Of a DNA stretch of 9,690 nt, positions 6,249 to 7,720 are shown piece after piece (within the stretch, counting starts at the first letter, position 1; each line of letters opens with the position of its first letter). Origin of the DNA: a virus (taxonomy: Duplodnaviria; Heunggongvirae; Uroviricota; Caudoviricetes). The notes beneath the pieces were generated by a model, which made no database searches, was not told the origin of the DNA, and worked only from the letters and a program-made list of their open reading frames with translations. The stretch lies in IMG/VR virus record IMGVR_UViG_2551306491_000022; one strand, written 5' to 3'. Both the position numbers and the translations under genes were made by a program.

Positions 6249-6342
6249 AGAAAACGCCACACAAAGGCCGTTTGTGTGTGTACAAGGTGTGGTATATGAT
6301 TTACGGCAACCATAACGGCTCCTCGTTTACGTTGTTGGTTAG

Positions 6343-6386
6343 AAGCCCCGTATGTGTTCCAGCACTGCGGGGTTTCGTCTTTTCTG
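6343..6386 (+). terminator. GC hairpin + T-rich tail (terminator-like), homolog of the 7090-7131 terminator
   Basis: CCCCG(6346-6350)...CGGGG(6368-6372) followed by TTTCGTCTTTTCTG. Flanking sequence GGTTAGAAGCCCCGTATGTG resembles GGTTAGACGCCCCATATGTG at 7083-7102. No plus-strand gene lies upstream, so function is unclear. Confidence 0.3.
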
Positions 6387-6402
6387 TACCTTGCATCAAC
6401 AA

Positions 6403-6485
6403 GGTGTAAGACACAATGTAAAATAACGGTGTCTTACACGTCAACCCTTCAAAATATTTTTTTTTCGTGTATATTGTCTTACACC
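6403..6485 (+). promoter_or_regulatory. Operator array and promoter of RHH module 1: three copies of GTGT-N3-ACAC palindrome
   Basis: GGTGTAAGACAC (6403-6414, inverted orientation), GGTGTCTTACACG (6428-6440), TTGTCTTACACC (6474-6485). Candidate -35 TTCAAA (6448-6453) and -10 TATATT (6470-6475) with 16-nt spacer. The third operator overlaps the -10 and start site. Confidence 0.5.
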
Positions 6486-6505
6486 AAAAACATGAGGGGT
6501 TAAAC

Positions 6506-6685
6506 ATGGCAACGGGGCCAAAGAATGCAAAATCACAATCTGTAACTGCACGTATTGCCCATGAAATTATTGAAGGCATGGAGAACGTGAAAGAAGAAGG
6601 TGAAAGCACGGGGCAGTTTATAAACGCAGCCATGCGCGGCGAAATCAAACGCCGCCAGCGTCGCAAGGCCAAAGAATCAGAATAA
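6506..6685 (+). CDS. Ribbon-helix-helix (CopG/Arc/MetJ-like) DNA-binding protein, 59 aa; putative repressor of module 1
   Basis: ATG at 6506 with GAGGGG 6 nt upstream (track start 6467 is GTG and would include the operator). Sequence KSQSVTARIAHEIIEGMENVKEEGESTGQFINAAMRGEI fits the RHH pattern of beta-strand, helix, G-x-S/T turn, helix, with a basic tail. Confidence 0.55.
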   Translation: MATGPKNAKSQSVTARIAHEIIEGMENVKEEGESTGQFINAAMRGEIKRRQRRKAKESE

Positions 6686-6690
6686 TCACT

Positions 6691-6734
6691 ATCAGCGCCG
6701 TGGTGTGAGGTACTACGGCGCATTGCTTTACAGG
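6691..6734 (+). repeat. Conserved 44-bp element with internal hairpin (copy 1), between the RHH gene and the downstream small gene
   Basis: ATCAGCGCCGTGGTGTGAGGTACTACGGCGCATTGCTTTACAGG is 43/44 identical to 7369-7412. Stem GCGCCGT(6695-6701) / ACGGCGC(6715-6721) with a 13-nt loop; the single difference is in the loop. Confidence 0.6.
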
Positions 6735-6742
6735 GCAGTATC

Positions 6743-6970
6743 ATGACCAACAACACACTATCACCAATACAAGACACGCAGACGCAAGAAGATGAAATCA
6801 TTCGGCAAAGGCAGTTAGAAACCTGTGCTCGCCTTGAAGCCGAACTGGCTAATCCTCTGAATATCCAACTAATACCGATAGAAATGAAACCTGGACTATT
6901 CGCGTTGGAGGCATTTTTAGCAAGCTGCCCACGGCGGCTAAAGTCCCGTAAGAATCGCCCGCCAGGATGA
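6743..6970 (+). CDS. Hypothetical small protein (75 aa), partner gene of RHH module 1
   Basis: ATG at 6743 with AGGG 7 nt upstream. N-terminus MTNNTLSPIQDTQTQ resembles MTNKESTDTPSQKT of the gene at 7421. TGA at 6968-6970. Confidence 0.45.
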   Translation: MTNNTLSPIQDTQTQEDEIIRQRQLETCARLEAELANPLNIQLIPIEMKPGLFALEAFLASCPRRLKSRKNRPPG

Positions 6971-7089
6971 GTACACAAAACCGAACTATGAAACGGATTA
7001 TTCCGTTTCCGGGGCGTTTGTGTGTGTATAAAGAGTAAGCTATGCTCTTTTATAGCCATAATCGTTACCTCAATTAATGGTTTGGTTAG

Positions 7090-7131
7090 ACGCCCCATAT
7101 GTGAGCCACCACTGCGGGGCGTTGTTTTTTG
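7090..7131 (+). terminator. Intrinsic terminator ending RHH module 1
   Basis: CGCCCC(7091-7096)...GGGGCG(7116-7121) stem followed by TTGTTTTTTG (7122-7131). Confidence 0.6.
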
Positions 7132-7147
7132 TATAACGGTAAGTACA

Positions 7148-7191
7148 ATGGTAATTACCATGTAACTATAGTAATTAAGGGTAATTACCAT
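7148..7191 (+). promoter_or_regulatory. Operator pair of RHH module 2: palindrome GGTAATTACC x2
   Basis: ATGGTAATTACCAT (7148-7161) is a perfect 14-bp palindrome. The second copy GGTAATTACC (7180-7189) sits between the Shine-Dalgarno and the ATG of the RHH gene. Centres are 30 bp apart. Candidate -10 TATAGT (7167-7172) lies between the two sites. Confidence 0.5.
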
Positions 7192-7363
7192 GTCAACACC
7201 ATTGGAAAAGCGATCGCCTCCATACCAAATGCGGCTACCAGAAGAATTCAGAGCACAACTTGAAGAGGCAGCGAAAGCAGACGGTGACACTTCTTTAGCC
7301 ACCTGGATCAAGCGAGTACTCCGAAAAGAATTACAGCAACGCGGTATTGAACCCAAAGGATAA
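7190..7363 (+). CDS. Arc-like ribbon-helix-helix DNA-binding protein, 57 aa (below the length cutoff of the ORF track); putative repressor of module 2
   Basis: ATG 7190 to TAA 7361-7363, Shine-Dalgarno AAGGG. Translation MSTPLEKRSPPYQMRLPEEFRAQLEEAAKADGDTSLATWIKRVLRKELQQRGIEPKG has the Arc/Mnt-type RHH pattern. The operator palindrome overlaps its start. Confidence 0.55.
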   Translation: MSTPLEKRSPPYQMRLPEEFRAQLEEAAKADGDTSLATWIKRVLRKELQQRGIEPKG

Positions 7364-7368
7364 AAAAC

Positions 7369-7412
7369 ATCAGCGCCGTGGCGTGAGGTACTACGGCGCA
7401 TTGCTTTACAGG
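7369..7412 (+). repeat. Conserved 44-bp element with internal hairpin (copy 2)
   Basis: ATCAGCGCCGTGGCGTGAGGTACTACGGCGCATTGCTTTACAGG, 43/44 identical to 6691-6734, at the same position relative to the RHH stop and the downstream ATG. Confidence 0.6.
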
Positions 7413-7420
7413 TACACACA

Positions 7421-7624
7421 ATGACCAATAAAGAATCAACCGATACACCATCGCAAAAAACGAACAGAGAGCACGAAAATATGGCGCTCGAGCATGAATC
7501 AGAAAGATTCGCACCATGCGCTTTTGTCCTTGATGAGTTTCTAAAAAAATATTCACGTTCTGAACGGATGAAAATGGCAGCACAATACGGCCCCAACAAG
7601 AAAGATAATTGCCCACCAGCCTGA
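7421..7624 (+). CDS. Hypothetical small protein (67 aa), partner gene of RHH module 2
   Basis: ATG at 7421 with AGGT 7 nt upstream; TGA at 7622-7624. N-terminal similarity to the 6743 gene product. Confidence 0.45.
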   Translation: MTNKESTDTPSQKTNREHENMALEHESERFAPCAFVLDEFLKKYSRSERMKMAAQYGPNKKDNCPPA

Positions 7625-7691
7625 TCGCGGTTATCATGCCCAAGCTTATGATTGTTGACACATACGGCGCAGCGGGTTAATTGTTCAGAAA

Positions 7692-7720
7692 GGTGGCTCC
7701 ATTTCGGGGCCGCTTTTTTT
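7692..7720 (+). terminator. Intrinsic terminator between the convergent plus-strand module 2 and alpA
   Basis: GGTGGCTCC(7692-7700), loop ATTTC, GGGGCCGC(7706-7713), then TTTTTTT(7714-7720). Stem includes G-U pairs. An A-run on the other side could allow weak bidirectional action. Confidence 0.6.

What the first reader, a model, noticed from the sequence alone, without database searches (positions are those of the whole stretch)
6265..7720. Two diverged tandem copies of a small repressor module with different operator palindromes
The plus-strand island holds two collinear modules about 745 bp apart. Each has a GTTTGTGTGTGTA(C/T)AA motif (6269-6288, 7014-7033), a GC hairpin with T-rich tail (6343-6386, 7090-7131), an operator array, a small RHH gene (6506-6685, 7190-7363), a 44-bp hairpin element that is 43/44 identical, and a small partner gene starting MTN (6743-6970, 7421-7624). 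The operators and RHH proteins have diverged completely (GTGTCTTACAC-type versus GGTAATTACC) while the framework and the 44-bp element are conserved. That looks like duplication followed by a specificity switch: two repressor/partner pairs recognising different DNA. Candidate roles are a two-input switch sensing helper phages, or paired addiction or defence modules. The second RHH gene is only 57 aa and is missed by the ORF track.
Basis: seen in the sequence. Interest (0 to 1): 0.8.

Follow-up and report, generated by a model that had tools for sequence, protein, structure and literature searches.

The report
Stacked satellite immunity cassettes, antisense-threaded ORF
The two "repressor modules" are real: they are two different immunity cassettes of a phage satellite stacked in tandem, each with a small DNA-binding repressor and a previously unlisted antisense RNA. 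The opposite strand carries a 500-codon stop-free track through both cassettes, which probably lets induced transcripts override them.

Summary
The window is an E. coli capsid-forming PICI / P4-like satellite. Region 6265-7720 lies between alpA and the icd/kil-led replication operon.

Both small proteins are predicted ribbon-helix-helix (RHH) proteins. Their palindromes overlap divergent promoters, and across species the palindrome changes together with the RHH2 subfamily.

The conserved "framework" is reinterpreted. It is an ~83-nt structured plus-strand RNA with its own -10 element, a stem-loop that exposes an anti-Shine-Dalgarno CCUC, and an intrinsic terminator. It is antisense to the icd/kil start region. 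It has two copies here and 1-2 in almost every related locus. It has no Rfam match.

The two cassettes did not diverge in place. At least six RHH/operator types occupy this slot in E. coli, bounded by conserved joints, and RHH2 occurs alone in other genera.

The main new point is on the minus strand, which is stop-free for 501 codons, from inside alpA to 10 nt past the icd ATG (shuffle P about 2e-9). In 50 classifiable species loci carrying an RHH2 homologue, this antisense frame is open over the gene in 24 of 25 with alpA upstream and in 0 of 25 without.

This matches the P4 eta/kil arrangement, where translation prevents termination. No toxin-antitoxin or defence signature was found. The function of the partner genes is unknown.

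The parts
6272..6300 (+). Predicted promoter of antisense RNA 1 (-35 TTGTGT 6272-6277, 17-nt spacer, -10 TATGAT 6295-6300)
   Evidence: In 30 loci anchored on the start-codon complement CAT, a TAnnnT hexamer sits at a fixed position 10 nt upstream of the CAT (information content 1.6, 1.4 and 1.4 bits at T1, A2, T6). It often carries TGn or a TTGnnn 17 nt upstream. The simple promoter scan does not report it because it scores 8 of 12.
6306..6388 (+). Antisense RNA 1: stem-loop 1 with the anti-SD CUCCUC in its loop, then a terminator hairpin (stem 6344-6374) and U-tail. Complementary to the SD and ATG of icd.
   Evidence: Covariance model R1 scores 68 bits, E=2e-12. The fold has z=-4.9 on the plus strand against -2.0 on the minus strand. 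In the terminator helix 10 of 11 pairs covary, 93.5% of cells are paired and 0 of 500 shuffles match. There are 28 G-U pairs on the plus strand against 2 A-C pairs.
6404..6485 (.). Operator array 1: GTGTCTTACAC three times (6404-6414 inverted, 6429-6439, 6474-6484 with one mismatch)
   Evidence: Three matches against 0.09 expected. They lie in the spacer and at +1 of the minus-strand promoter, and at +1 of the plus-strand promoter.
6415..6444 (-). P_L1, predicted promoter of the icd-led replication operon (TTGACG-18-TACATT)
   Evidence: Promoter scan, 9 of 12. Inferred.
6448..6475 (+). P_R1, predicted promoter of the RHH1-partner1 operon (TTCAAA-16-TATATT)
   Evidence: Promoter scan, 9 of 12. 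Inferred.
6506..6685 (+). RHH1, 59 aa, YlcI/YnfO family; presumed cassette-1 repressor
6691..6734 (+). Intercistronic hairpin element 1 (stem GCGCCGTGG/CTACGGCGC) plus the partner SD region
   Evidence: 12 copies in E. coli loci, always between an RHH stop codon and the partner ATG. Fold energy -24.3 kcal/mol, z=-3.3. Flagged as terminator-like.
6743..6970 (+). Partner 1, 75 aa, function unknown
   Evidence: Aligns with partner 2 and its homologues through the core ..FALExFL..Y/C. No Pfam, NCBIfam or PADLOC family.
7014..7059 (-). icd 5' remnant (ATG 7059, MAIKEHSLLFIHTQT..) fused in frame to the long ORF
   Evidence: Parallel to the Icd N-terminus MVAVNHIPHLVHTQT. PGAP labels the equivalent ORF in strain 98E11 'Icd-like, incomplete'.
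7018..7046 (+). Predicted promoter of antisense RNA 2 (-35 TTGTGT 7018-7023, -10 TATGCT 7041-7046)
   Evidence: Same register as cassette 1.
7052..7135 (+). Antisense RNA 2 (stem-loop 1 with an anti-SD loop, then terminator stem 7091-7121 and U-tail)
   Evidence: R1 scores 78.9 bits, E=8e-15. Fold z=-3.4.
7122..7149 (+). P_R2, predicted promoter of the RHH2-partner2 operon (TTGTTT-16-TACAAT)
   Evidence: Read from the sequence. Inferred; below the threshold of the scan.
7138..7189 (.). Operator array 2: GGTAATTACC at 7150-7159 and 7180-7189, with degenerate copies at 7138-7147 and 7169-7178
   Evidence: In the 33 RHH2 loci sampled, this motif (at most 1 mismatch) is 110 times denser in the roughly 120 nt just upstream of and overlapping the gene start than elsewhere. 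It changes with the protein subfamily.
7168..7196 (-). P_L2 (TTGACA-17-TACTAT). The -35 is formed by the first codons of RHH2, and an operator lies in the spacer.
   Evidence: Best promoter match of the region, 10 of 12. ATGTCA is conserved at the start of RHH2 homologues.
7190..7363 (+). RHH2, 57 aa, Arc-like; presumed cassette-2 repressor
   Evidence: phrog_228 'Arc-like repressor' E=4.9e-7. 93 homologue clusters across Gammaproteobacteria. AF2 pLDDT 78 with strand-helix-helix topology. Foldseek neighbours are AmrZ, NikR and Arc at 0.9-1.3 A over 37-38 residues. The codon-position substitution pattern 769/399/1639 shows that the plus frame is the selected protein.
7369..7412 (+). Intercistronic hairpin element 2
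   Evidence: 43 of 44 bases identical to element 1.
7421..7624 (+). Partner 2, 67 aa, function unknown
   Evidence: phrog_21027 E=3e-12. Only 10 clusters, all E. coli. Only 10 representatives among 1.84 billion proteins.
7690..7720 (+). Intrinsic terminator of the cassette-2 operon
   Evidence: GGCTCC-ATTTC-GGGGCC hairpin plus T7, read. Its stem has a G-U pair on the plus strand only.
6301..7791 (-). eta-like open frame. It is stop-free from 7806 to 6304 (501 codons), the first ATG is at 7791 inside alpA, and the stop at 6303-6301 lies 10 nt after the icd ATG.
   Evidence: 0 internal stops against 24 and 40 in the other two minus frames. Shuffle P about 4e-3 for the coding parts times 5e-7 for the intergenic parts. 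Conserved in relatives and in P4. No protein family match.
6113..6313 (-). Icd/Kil-like first gene of the replication operon
   Evidence: NF033153 E=6e-18. Shares phrog_1743 with the Kil part of P4 Eta.
7746..7952 (-). alpA/vis-like gene upstream of the island
   Evidence: PF05930 E=0.003. phrog_66 and phrog_2790 'excisionase and transcriptional regulator'. tblastn match to P4 Vis.

Best explanation
Region 6265-7720 is the immunity region of a P4-like, capsid-forming PICI satellite, and it holds two different immunity cassettes in tandem.

**What each cassette contains**
1. A gene for a constitutive cis-antisense RNA of about 83 nt. Its first stem-loop exposes an anti-Shine-Dalgarno sequence. 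The RNA is fully complementary to the ribosome-binding site and start codon of the icd/kil-type gene on the other strand.
2. A pair of back-to-back promoters overlapped by palindromic operators.
3. A small ribbon-helix-helix repressor gene whose product binds those operators. It would shut the leftward promoter (P_L, which drives icd and the replication genes) and autoregulate its own promoter.
4. A conserved RNA hairpin.
5. In E. coli only, a small partner gene of unknown function.

**How the two cassettes relate**
Cassette 1 (RHH1, GTGTCTTACAC) guards the real icd-replication operon. Cassette 2 (RHH2, GGTAATTACC) guards an icd 5' remnant. The cassettes came from two heteroimmune satellite lineages and were joined by recombination at the conserved linkers. 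A resident element with both would be immune to two satellite immunity types.

**The minus-strand track**
The minus strand is kept free of stop codons from inside alpA to the icd start. When the helper phage activates the alpA promoter, ribosomes would follow the polymerase through both cassettes, as in P4 eta. This would prevent Rho-dependent termination and hairpin or antisense-RNA interference. Replication genes would then be expressed regardless of the repressors.

**Shown in silico**
- The folds and the families.
- Operator enrichment and operator/protein co-variation.
- The RNA structure and its strand.
- The open frame, its conservation and its association with alpA.

**Inferred**
- DNA binding by the RHH proteins.
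- Promoter activity.
- Existence and action of the antisense RNA.
- Translation of the track and its anti-termination role.
For: **Element identity**
- int, alpA, Icd-like, RepA helicase and a protease-capsid fusion lie next to tRNA-Pro/yejM.

**RHH proteins and operators**
- RHH folds.
- Operators are enriched and overlap the predicted promoters.
- Operator sequence co-varies with RHH2 subfamily across genera: GGTAATTACC, TGTAATTACA, GGTATATACC, GTGTAATTACAC. Motif density is 110-fold higher at the gene's upstream end than elsewhere.

**Antisense RNA**
- Terminator helix: 10 of 11 pairs covary and 0 of 500 shuffles match.
- 28 G-U pairs against 2 A-C pairs place the structure on the plus strand.
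- Stem-loop 1 is 87% paired with G-U-rich pairs.
- A -10 TAnnnT is conserved at a fixed distance.
- The covariance model finds exactly 2 copies in the window and 44 more in other loci, all on the RHH strand, and none in P4.

**Cassette exchange**
- At least six RHH/operator types occupy the same slot in E. coli between the conserved RNA gene and the 44-bp element.
- Single-cassette relatives exist.
- An RHH cassette is stacked on a C4/isrK RNA-immunity cassette in strain 98E11.

**Open frame**
- 501 codons with no internal stop; P about 2e-9.
- It tiles alpA to icd in all eight E. coli loci. It is in frame with Icd in L003 and L005, and split into two overlapping ORFs in L002 and L004.
- It is present in Pasteurella and Aeromonas, in frame with Kil.
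- It is open over RHH2 in the wobble-coincident phase in 24 of 25 species loci with alpA upstream, against 0 of 25 without.
- Only openness is selected, not the minus-frame protein: amino-acid identity is 62% on the minus frame against 77% on the plus frame, the same as in loci where the frame is closed.

**P4 precedent**
- In P4 the open frame runs 8821 to 8168, starts inside vis and ends as Kil.
- Its mechanism is summarised in PMC10111431, citing Forti et al. 1999.
Against: - No expression data of any kind. Promoters, RNA ends, translation of the track and Rho dependence are all inferred.
- In this window the track is not nested in frame with icd as eta/kil is in P4. It stops 10 nt after the icd ATG in another frame.
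- The track product matches no protein family, whereas P4 Eta carries an Ash/Bro-type domain.
- One alpA-context locus (L035) has the frame interrupted.
- Several alpA-context loci have gaps of 380-1100 nt between alpA and the start of the track.
- The species loci are not phylogenetically independent; about 11 of the 25 are Xenorhabdus or Photorhabdus.
- Within the coding parts alone the open frame is only mildly improbable (P about 4e-3).
- The -35 elements of the antisense-RNA promoter are weak, and the simple scan did not call it.
- Foldseek E-values for RHH2 are above 1 because the protein is so small.
- Coding status of the partner genes cannot be separated from minus-frame constraint by substitution pattern.
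Confidence: 0.62

Rival explanations
1. A local tandem duplication of one repressor/partner module was followed by divergence of the RHH and operator (a specificity switch). The result is a two-input switch that senses two helper-phage signals.
For: - Two collinear modules share a framework, and the 44-bp element is 43 of 44 identical.
- The two RHH families are remotely related.
- The partners are homologous.
- An OR-gate is architecturally possible. P_L2 transcripts would read through cassette 1 along the open frame that starts at ATG 7059.
Against: - Flanks are 80-98% identical while the RHH genes are undetectable by BLASTP. That does not fit uniform divergence after a duplication.
- RHH2 is 74-88% identical to single-cassette genes in distant genera.
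- Many RHH types are swapped at the same joints in E. coli.
- Published work attributes induction of Gram-negative PICIs to helper activation of alpA, not to anti-repression.
Confidence: 0.15
2. The RHH-partner pairs are toxin-antitoxin, addiction or anti-phage defence modules carried as satellite cargo.
For: - RHH proteins are common antitoxins. Several structural neighbours are antitoxins: CopA_SO, MazE6, TacA, HicB.
- Some database names call RHH2 homologues 'HicB family antitoxin'.
- The layout is two genes with the RHH first.
Against: - The partner proteins give no convincing toxin or defence family match in Pfam, NCBIfam or PADLOC. The only hits are sub-threshold: Cas8g for partner 2 (E=6e-4 in PADLOC, E=0.0024 in NCBIfam at 17.6 bits, far below the NCBIfam model's curated cut-off of 125) and DUF2371 in Pfam (E=0.23).
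- The partner family is tiny and restricted to E. coli.
- RHH2 occurs without any partner in Pasteurella and Aeromonas, in the same position between alpA and kil.
- The operators overlap the promoter of the replication operon.
Confidence: 0.05
3. The real gene is the long minus-strand ORF, encoding an Eta/Bro-like protein. Some of the small plus-strand ORFs, especially the partners, are then by-products of it.
For: - PGAP annotates the minus ORF as a 247-aa protein in EDL933 and as Icd-like, Ash or hypothetical pseudogenes in other strains. It omits plus-strand genes there.
- For partner 1 and RHH1, plus-frame and minus-frame amino-acid identities between variants are about equal.
- P4 Eta is a real protein with an Ash-like domain.
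Against: - The minus-frame products match no family in Pfam or PHROGs. In NCBIfam the only hit is a sub-threshold PRK10179 match (E=0.12, 12 bits against a cutoff of 339).
- Over RHH2 the substitution pattern is that of plus-strand coding: position 2 is most conserved, and identity is 77% on plus against 62% on minus.
- The track passes through terminators, promoters and operators.
- It is split into two overlapping frames in L002 and L004 without loss of coverage.
- Its sequence is unrelated between cassette types.
- RHH1 and RHH2 are strong family members with confident fold predictions.
Confidence: 0.1
4. The long antisense open frame is a compositional or chance by-product and has no function.
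For: - In the wobble-coincident phase, antisense stops require Tyr, His or Gln codons after pyrimidine-ending codons. They are therefore intrinsically rare inside these genes (mean 0.4-1.9 per gene).
Against: - The intergenic 720 nt alone give P about 5e-7.
- All four genes share one phase.
- The frame starts inside alpA and ends at the icd start.
- It is conserved in unrelated sequence across at least 11 lineages, including AT-rich Pasteurella.
- It is absent from the 25 homologous loci that lack alpA.
Confidence: 0.04

Closest known systems
Bacteriophage P4 left operon: vis - eta/kil with the internal promoter P_LE and the CI RNA immunity region (Forti et al. 1999 J Bacteriol 181:5225, as summarised in PMC10111431)
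   Same: - Same gene order: an AlpA-family gene, then a long ORF starting at or inside its 3' end, then a Kil/Icd-like protein (shared phrog_1743), then the replication genes.
- The long ORF spans the immunity determinants and an internal leftward promoter.
- In L003, L005, L009 and L011 the ORF is nested in frame with Kil, exactly as eta/kil is.
- Some relatives still carry the C4/isrK RNAs.
   Different: - Immunity here is protein-based (an RHH repressor with operators) plus a true opposite-strand antisense RNA. P4 uses the same-strand CI RNA; Rfam C4 and isrK are absent from the window.
- The track runs antisense through up to four genes and is 501 codons long, against about 200 in P4.
- Its product has no Ash/Bro domain.
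- In this window it ends 10 nt after the icd ATG, out of frame with icd.
- Psu, sid and delta are absent. The element carries its own capsid genes (cf-PICI type).
Salmonella phage P22 immI region (Arc and Mnt RHH repressors, back-to-back promoters P_ant/P_mnt, sar antisense RNA); from my own knowledge
   Same: - Small RHH repressors bind operators that overlap divergent promoters.
- A short antisense RNA complementary to the ribosome-binding site of the controlled gene gives a second, post-transcriptional lock.
- Arc is a structural neighbour of both proteins.
   Different: - The controlled gene is icd/kil plus replication genes, not an antirepressor.
- The RHH gene is divergent from the controlled operon rather than its first gene.
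- P22 has no counterpart of the stop-free antisense track.
Phage P1/P7 immI (c4 RNA - icd - ant); from my own knowledge
   Same: - An Icd-family first gene is present (NF033153).
- Its translation initiation region is the target of a small RNA. In P1, icd translation is needed for downstream transcription.
   Different: - C4 is processed from the same transcript and acts on the same-strand message.
- Here the RNA is a separately transcribed opposite-strand RNA and has no Rfam C4 match.
Gram-negative PICIs and cf-PICIs (EcCICFT073, EcCIEDL933)
   Same: - The window has int, alpA, rep and capsid genes.
- EDL933 itself carries a single-cassette version of this region (L007).
- Induction requires alpA, whose expression is activated by the helper.
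   Different: - The papers read here describe no repressor, antisense RNA or read-through ORF between alpA and rep. 'Repressor' has 0 occurrences in the cf-PICI preprint.
- PMC10111431 calls this slot the 'Bro zone' and does not mention opposite-strand genes; 'antisense' has 0 occurrences.

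Membership tests
Ribbon-helix-helix (Arc/MetJ/CopG) DNA-binding proteins | N-terminal strand followed by two helices with a G-x-S/T turn between them | tested here: met
Ribbon-helix-helix (Arc/MetJ/CopG) DNA-binding proteins | Significant match to a curated RHH sequence family | tested here: inconclusive
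   RHH1 passes NF041551 YlcI/YnfO (64.8 bits against a cutoff of 30), but that family is not itself labelled RHH. RHH2 matches PF03869 Arc at E=0.008, below the cutoff, and phrog_228 'Arc-like repressor' at E=4.9e-7.
Ribbon-helix-helix (Arc/MetJ/CopG) DNA-binding proteins | Binds repeated or palindromic operators at its own promoter | not testable with these tools
   In silico only. Operators are enriched, overlap promoters and co-vary with protein subfamily. Binding needs EMSA or footprinting.
P4 eta/kil translation-dependent read-through | Long ORF that begins at or inside the 3' end of the vis/alpA gene | tested here: met
   The frame is open from 7806 with its first ATG at 7791; the alpA stop is at 7746. 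P4: open from 8821, vis stop at 8764.
P4 eta/kil translation-dependent read-through | ORF spans the immunity determinants and the internal leftward promoter | tested here: met
   It covers both RHH cassettes, both predicted P_L promoters and both antisense-RNA genes.
P4 eta/kil translation-dependent read-through | kil is the in-frame 3' end of eta (nested genes) | tested here: not met
   In the window the track stops at 6303-6301, in a different frame from icd (ATG 6313). The feature is met in relatives L003, L005, L009 and L011. In the window an icd 5' remnant is nested in frame at 7059.
P4 eta/kil translation-dependent read-through | CI (C4) immunity RNA and its seqA (isrK) target inside the ORF | tested here: not met
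   No C4 or isrK match in the window even at E up to 1. The positive controls P4, L003 and L036 all match.
P4 eta/kil translation-dependent read-through | Translation of the ORF prevents Rho-dependent termination | not testable with these tools
   Needs nonsense mutants and Rho inhibition. The supporting evidence is indirect: stop avoidance tied to the presence of alpA.
cis-antisense regulatory RNA (P22 sar-like) | Own promoter and intrinsic terminator on the strand opposite the target's ribosome-binding site | tested here: inconclusive
   Conserved -10 TAnnnT at a fixed distance. Covarying terminator whose G-U pairs occur only on the plus strand. An anti-SD sequence sits in the loop of stem-loop 1. 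No transcript data.
Type II toxin-antitoxin module | Downstream gene belongs to a toxin family, and the two genes are obligately linked | tested here: not met
   No convincing toxin or defence family for either partner; only a sub-threshold Cas8g match for partner 2. RHH2 homologues lack a partner in Pasteurella and Aeromonas. The partner family is restricted to E. coli.
Capsid-forming PICI / P4-like satellite | int, alpA, a replication module and capsid genes in a roughly 10-15 kb island at a tRNA site | tested here: met
   A 96%-identical element lies next to tRNA-Pro/yejM with integrase, an HTH (alpA) gene, Icd-like, RepA helicase and a ClpP-like protease/major capsid fusion. EDL933 carries a relative and is the cf-PICI prototype strain.

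The most novel reading that the evidence does not exclude
In a widespread group of Gammaproteobacterial phage satellites, one DNA segment is dual-use.

- One strand encodes the immunity repressor (RHH) and an antisense RNA that keep the satellite silent.
- The other strand is kept as a stop-free 'ribosome track', phased so that its wobble positions coincide with those of the repressor gene.
- Translation of that track from the helper-activated alpA promoter would override the immunity.

Selection for mere translatability, not for a protein, would then shape synonymous codon choice in a conserved repressor gene and in hundreds of bases of promoters, operators and terminators. Stacking cassettes on this track would give multi-type immunity.
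Probability: 0.45. Interest if true: 0.8.

Novelty: new variant of a known kind. Interest (0 to 1): 0.7.

Why it matters
1. **A missing regulatory layer.** Gram-negative PICIs and cf-PICIs are described as controlled only by helper activation of alpA. A conserved RHH repressor plus antisense-RNA cassette between alpA and the replication genes would be that missing layer. It could cover maintenance of silence, establishment after transfer, and satellite-versus-satellite superinfection immunity. The many exchangeable specificities would parallel heteroimmune phages.

2. **A natural test case for overlapping reading frames.** A stop-free track runs antisense through real genes, terminators and operators, and is kept open only where an upstream alpA can feed transcripts into it. 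This suggests selection for translatability rather than for a protein product. It extends the P4 eta mechanism to a far more constrained setting.

3. **Annotation.** The region is annotated inconsistently. PGAP calls either the plus-strand genes or the minus-strand ORF, or marks pseudogenes. The antisense RNA is in no RNA family library. Recognising the architecture would fix annotation in more than a thousand E. coli genomes.

Tried and rejected
- **Rfam scan of the window at E up to 1.** Only two sub-threshold chance hits, and no C4 or isrK. The idea that the leader hairpin is a P4 CI-like RNA was dropped.
- **Minus-strand leader structure.** I first took the conserved hairpin for a 5'-UTR structure of the icd mRNA on the minus strand. 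This was rejected: G-U pairs are 28 on the plus strand against 2 on the minus strand, and the plus strand folds much better than shuffles (z -4.9 and -3.4 against -2.0 and -1.7).
- **PDB sequence searches.** With RHH1, RHH2 and their profiles, the only hits were designed helical repeats, a TPR protein and other unrelated proteins. These were uninformative.
- **Direct comparison of the paired proteins.** BLASTP of RHH1 against RHH2 and of partner 1 against partner 2 gave no alignment.
- **Partner function.** PADLOC, Pfam and NCBIfam gave nothing credible for the partners. The exhaustive profile search of 1.84 billion proteins gave only 10 representatives. The function remains unknown.
- **Arginine-rich motif idea.** Some partner variants have an Arg-rich stretch (RKRRRRK), which suggested an N-like protein binding the 44-bp hairpin. 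Both window partners lack the motif, so the idea was dropped.
- **Plus-frame versus minus-frame test on the partner genes.** Inconclusive.
- **Any-frame version of the alpA association.** It is noisier: 11 of 26 non-truncated loci without alpA have some short antisense ORF over the gene. Only the wobble-coincident frame separates the two groups cleanly.
- **Forti et al. 1999 (PMC94026).** Not in the held library. Its content is cited through PMC10111431 and from memory.

Full report
**What the window is**

The window is a phage satellite of the P4-like, capsid-forming PICI kind. A 96%-identical element in E. coli strain 4 lies next to tRNA-Pro/yejM. On the window's minus strand it carries:
- an integrase;
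- a small HTH (alpA/vis-like) gene;
- an Icd-like gene;
- three small ORFs and a DUF4222 gene;
- a RepA-family helicase;
- a ClpP-like protease/major-capsid fusion.

The finding (6265-7720) is the only plus-strand island. It lies between alpA (7746-7952) and the Icd-like gene (6113-6313; NF033153, E=6e-18). About 1140 of 5426 complete E. coli genomes match some part of the 6100-7800 query. Only 36 carry most of this particular two-module arrangement.

**Check of the observation**

- The framework blocks 6335-6388 and 7082-7135 are 80% identical.
- The 44-bp element differs at one base.
- GTGTCTTACAC occurs three times in 81 bp against 0.09 expected in the whole window.
- GGTAATTACC occurs exactly twice, 30 bp apart, the second copy abutting the ATG of the 57-aa gene.

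Both small proteins are predicted RHH folds.
- RHH2 matches the PHROG 'Arc-like repressor' (E=4.9e-7). It has 93 homologue clusters across Enterobacterales, Pasteurellaceae, Aeromonas, Oceanimonas and Gilliamella.
- The RHH2 model superposes on AmrZ, NikR and Arc at about 1 A over 37-38 residues. Foldseek E-values are poor for so small a protein.

The two RHH proteins are only remotely related. The two partners align as one small family.

**The operators belong to the RHH proteins**

In 33 of the species loci carrying an RHH2 homologue, GGTAATTACC-like sites are 110 times denser in the roughly 120 nt just upstream of and overlapping the gene start than elsewhere. The palindrome also changes with the protein subfamily: GGTAATTACC/GGTCGTTACC, TGTAATTACA, GGTATATACC, GTGTAATTACAC.

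The best promoter match of the region is on the minus strand (TTGACA-17-TACTAT, 7196-7168). Its -35 is formed by the first codons of RHH2, and an operator lies in its spacer. Cassette 1 has the equivalent layout (6444-6415 on the minus strand, 6448-6475 on the plus strand). Each RHH is therefore placed to repress a leftward promoter (P_L) and its own rightward promoter. This is inferred; no binding data exist.

**What the conserved "framework" is**

On the minus strand, the GTTTGTGTGTGTA motif encodes the N-terminus of Icd. This reads MVAVNHIPHLVHTQT in cassette 1 and MAIKEHSLLFIHTQT in the icd 5' remnant of cassette 2.

More importantly, the hairpin and its flanks form a conserved structured RNA on the plus strand.
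- **Terminator helix.** In 31 copies from 29 loci, 10 of 11 pairs show compensatory changes and 93.5% of cells are paired. No shuffle out of 500 reaches this, and slid registers reach at most 52%.
- **Strand.** There are 28 G-U pairs on the plus strand against 2 A-C pairs, which would be G-U on the minus strand. The structure is therefore selected in plus-sense RNA.
- **Second stem-loop.** Upstream, the conserved GUGGUU pairs with the complement of the start-codon region, and the anti-Shine-Dalgarno CCUC is exposed in the loop. It is 87% paired, with many G-U pairs and covariation in the inner helix.
- **Promoter.** A TAnnnT hexamer lies 10 nt upstream of the start-codon complement at a fixed position in 30 copies. 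It often carries TGn, or a TTGnnn 17 nt further upstream. In the window these are TTGTGT-17-TATGAT (6272-6300) and TTGTGT-17-TATGCT (7018-7046).
- **Copy number.** A covariance model of the ~83-nt unit finds exactly two copies in the window (6306-6388 and 7052-7135). It finds 44 more in other loci, all on the RHH strand, and none in P4.
- **Rfam.** Nothing matches there.

The simplest reading is a constitutive cis-antisense RNA against the translation initiation region of icd/kil. P22 sar is a precedent (own knowledge).

**Not a duplication that diverged in place**

- In E. coli relatives, the slot between the antisense-RNA gene and the 44-bp element holds at least six RHH/operator types.
- The 44-bp element always sits between an RHH stop codon and the partner ATG, whatever the RHH type.
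- Single-cassette elements exist with an RHH1-type (E. coli 042) or an RHH2-type gene (EDL933).
- In Pasteurella and Aeromonas, RHH2 sits alone, without a partner, between alpA and kil.
- In strains 98E11 and SJ3, an RHH cassette sits upstream of an Ash-family remnant that precedes icd. In 98E11 that stretch carries a P4-type RNA-immunity cassette, with Rfam C4 and isrK hits.

The window's two modules are therefore two heteroimmune cassettes joined at conserved linkers.

The minus strand is stop-free for 501 codons (7806 to 6304). The other two minus frames have 24 and 40 stops.
- The first ATG (7791) is inside alpA.
- The stop lies 10 nt after the icd ATG.
- All four plus-strand genes are in the same phase, the one in which wobble positions of the two strands coincide.
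- Shuffles that preserve amino acids give P about 4e-3 for the coding parts. Dinucleotide shuffles give about 5e-7 for the intergenic parts.

The track is conserved where the sequence is not.
- It tiles alpA to icd in all eight E. coli loci.
- It is in frame with Icd in two of them and split into two overlapping ORFs in two others.
- It exists in Pasteurella (200 codons) and Aeromonas (238 codons), in frame with Kil.

Among 55 species loci with an RHH2 homologue, five were ambiguous: contig ends, or alpA distant or not found. All five are open. Among the other 50, the wobble-coincident antisense frame is open over the gene in 24 of 25 with alpA to the right, and in 0 of 25 without.

Equally similar RHH2 genes are closed when alpA is absent, for example in Yokenella, Serratia and Yersinia at 81% identity.

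Only openness is selected.
- Substitutions over RHH2 fall 769/399/1639 on plus codon positions 1/2/3.
- Amino-acid identity is 77% on the plus frame and 62% on the minus frame, the same as in closed loci.
- The minus-frame product matches no family beyond one sub-threshold NCBIfam hit.

**Comparison with what is known**

P4 itself has the same layout. An open frame runs from 8821 to 8168, starts inside vis and ends as Kil. The window's Icd-like protein and the Kil part of P4 Eta share phrog_1743.

PMC10111431, citing Forti et al. 1999, summarises the P4 mechanism as follows:
- it is translated only from the upstream late promoter;
- its translation prevents termination, so that late transcripts read through the immunity region.

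The window fits that logic, with these differences:
- immunity is protein-based plus an opposite-strand RNA, instead of the CI RNA;
- the track runs antisense through real genes;
- it is 2.5 times longer;
- it has no Ash/Bro domain;
- in this element it is not nested in frame with icd.

The cf-PICI preprint states that induction requires alpA activated by the helper, and it mentions no repressor. My literature searches found no description of this arrangement, but the library is incomplete.

**Proposed mechanism**

- In the quiescent state, each RHH represses its P_L and autoregulates.
- The antisense RNA blocks icd/kil translation on leaky P_L transcripts. By analogy with P1 icd and P4 kil, this exposes them to Rho.
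- On helper activation of the alpA promoter, ribosomes follow RNA polymerase along the stop-free track through both cassettes and hand over at the icd start. Replication genes are then expressed regardless of either repressor.
- Stacking two cassettes would give immunity against two satellite types. An OR-gate for two inducers cannot be excluded.

**What remains unknown**

- The partner genes: an orphan family restricted to E. coli, with no defence or toxin signature.
- The role of the 44-bp hairpin. It may act as an attenuator or processing site, and it is certainly a recombination joint.
- Every expression-level claim. No transcript, binding or translation data were available.

Noticed in passing
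window 438-545 and 2976-3080 (minus strand): Two copies, about 81% identical over about 110 nt, of a minus-strand element. Each has an intrinsic terminator whose stem differs by compensatory changes (GGCGGCACCAGCCGCC-T6 against CCGGAGCAATCCGG-CT6). This is followed by a conserved GC-rich block, CTCCTGGTGGGG..GGCCTG..CACGGGGCGG..GGCGCGGAAAAAGCGCATTTTT.TGATTTT. The copies sit at operon junctions, after the capsid gene and after the ssb-like gene. Possibly a late promoter or regulatory RNA site.
   Followed up: partly
L003 3260-3445 (E. coli 98E11) and L036 2507-2723, minus strand: Rfam C4 (P4 CI-like) and isrK (seqA-like) RNAs lie between an RHH cassette and icd. This shows that RHH cassettes and P4-type RNA-immunity cassettes can be stacked in one satellite. 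SJ3 (L002) has the same annotated layout but was not scanned.
   Followed up: partly
window 3770-3960: A dense cluster of short repeats (cccactt / ttcccac / gcccac motifs on both strands) lies just downstream of the RepA-helicase gene (stop at 3962). It looks iteron-like and is probably the satellite replication origin. Seen by eye.
   Followed up: no
L007 2710-3453 (EDL933), L006 3054-3501, L003 3728-4243, L002 3236-3574 and 3944-4313: RefSeq annotation of this region is inconsistent between strains. The minus-strand track is called a 247-aa hypothetical protein in EDL933. In other strains it is called an 'Icd-like', 'ash family' or 'hypothetical' pseudogene. The plus-strand RHH and partner genes are often left unannotated.
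   Followed up: yes
L041-L046 (Photorhabdus), e.g. L041 1636-1718 and 2851-2933: Photorhabdus loci without alpA carry two copies of the antisense-RNA element and two RHH2 genes about 1.2 kb apart, each next to what look like HigA/HigB-type genes. Cassette stacking therefore also occurs outside the alpA context.
   Followed up: no
L011 5564-5631 (Aeromonas), minus strand: An Rfam int-alpA RNA (RF02996) match lies between the integrase and the 298-aa gene of the Aeromonas satellite. The window has no such match.
   Followed up: no
window 7690-7720 and the terminator stems at 6344-6374 and 7091-7121: All three plus-strand terminators in the island contain G-U pairs. These become A-C mismatches in the minus-sense RNA, which would weaken them as obstacles to minus-strand read-through.
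   Followed up: partly
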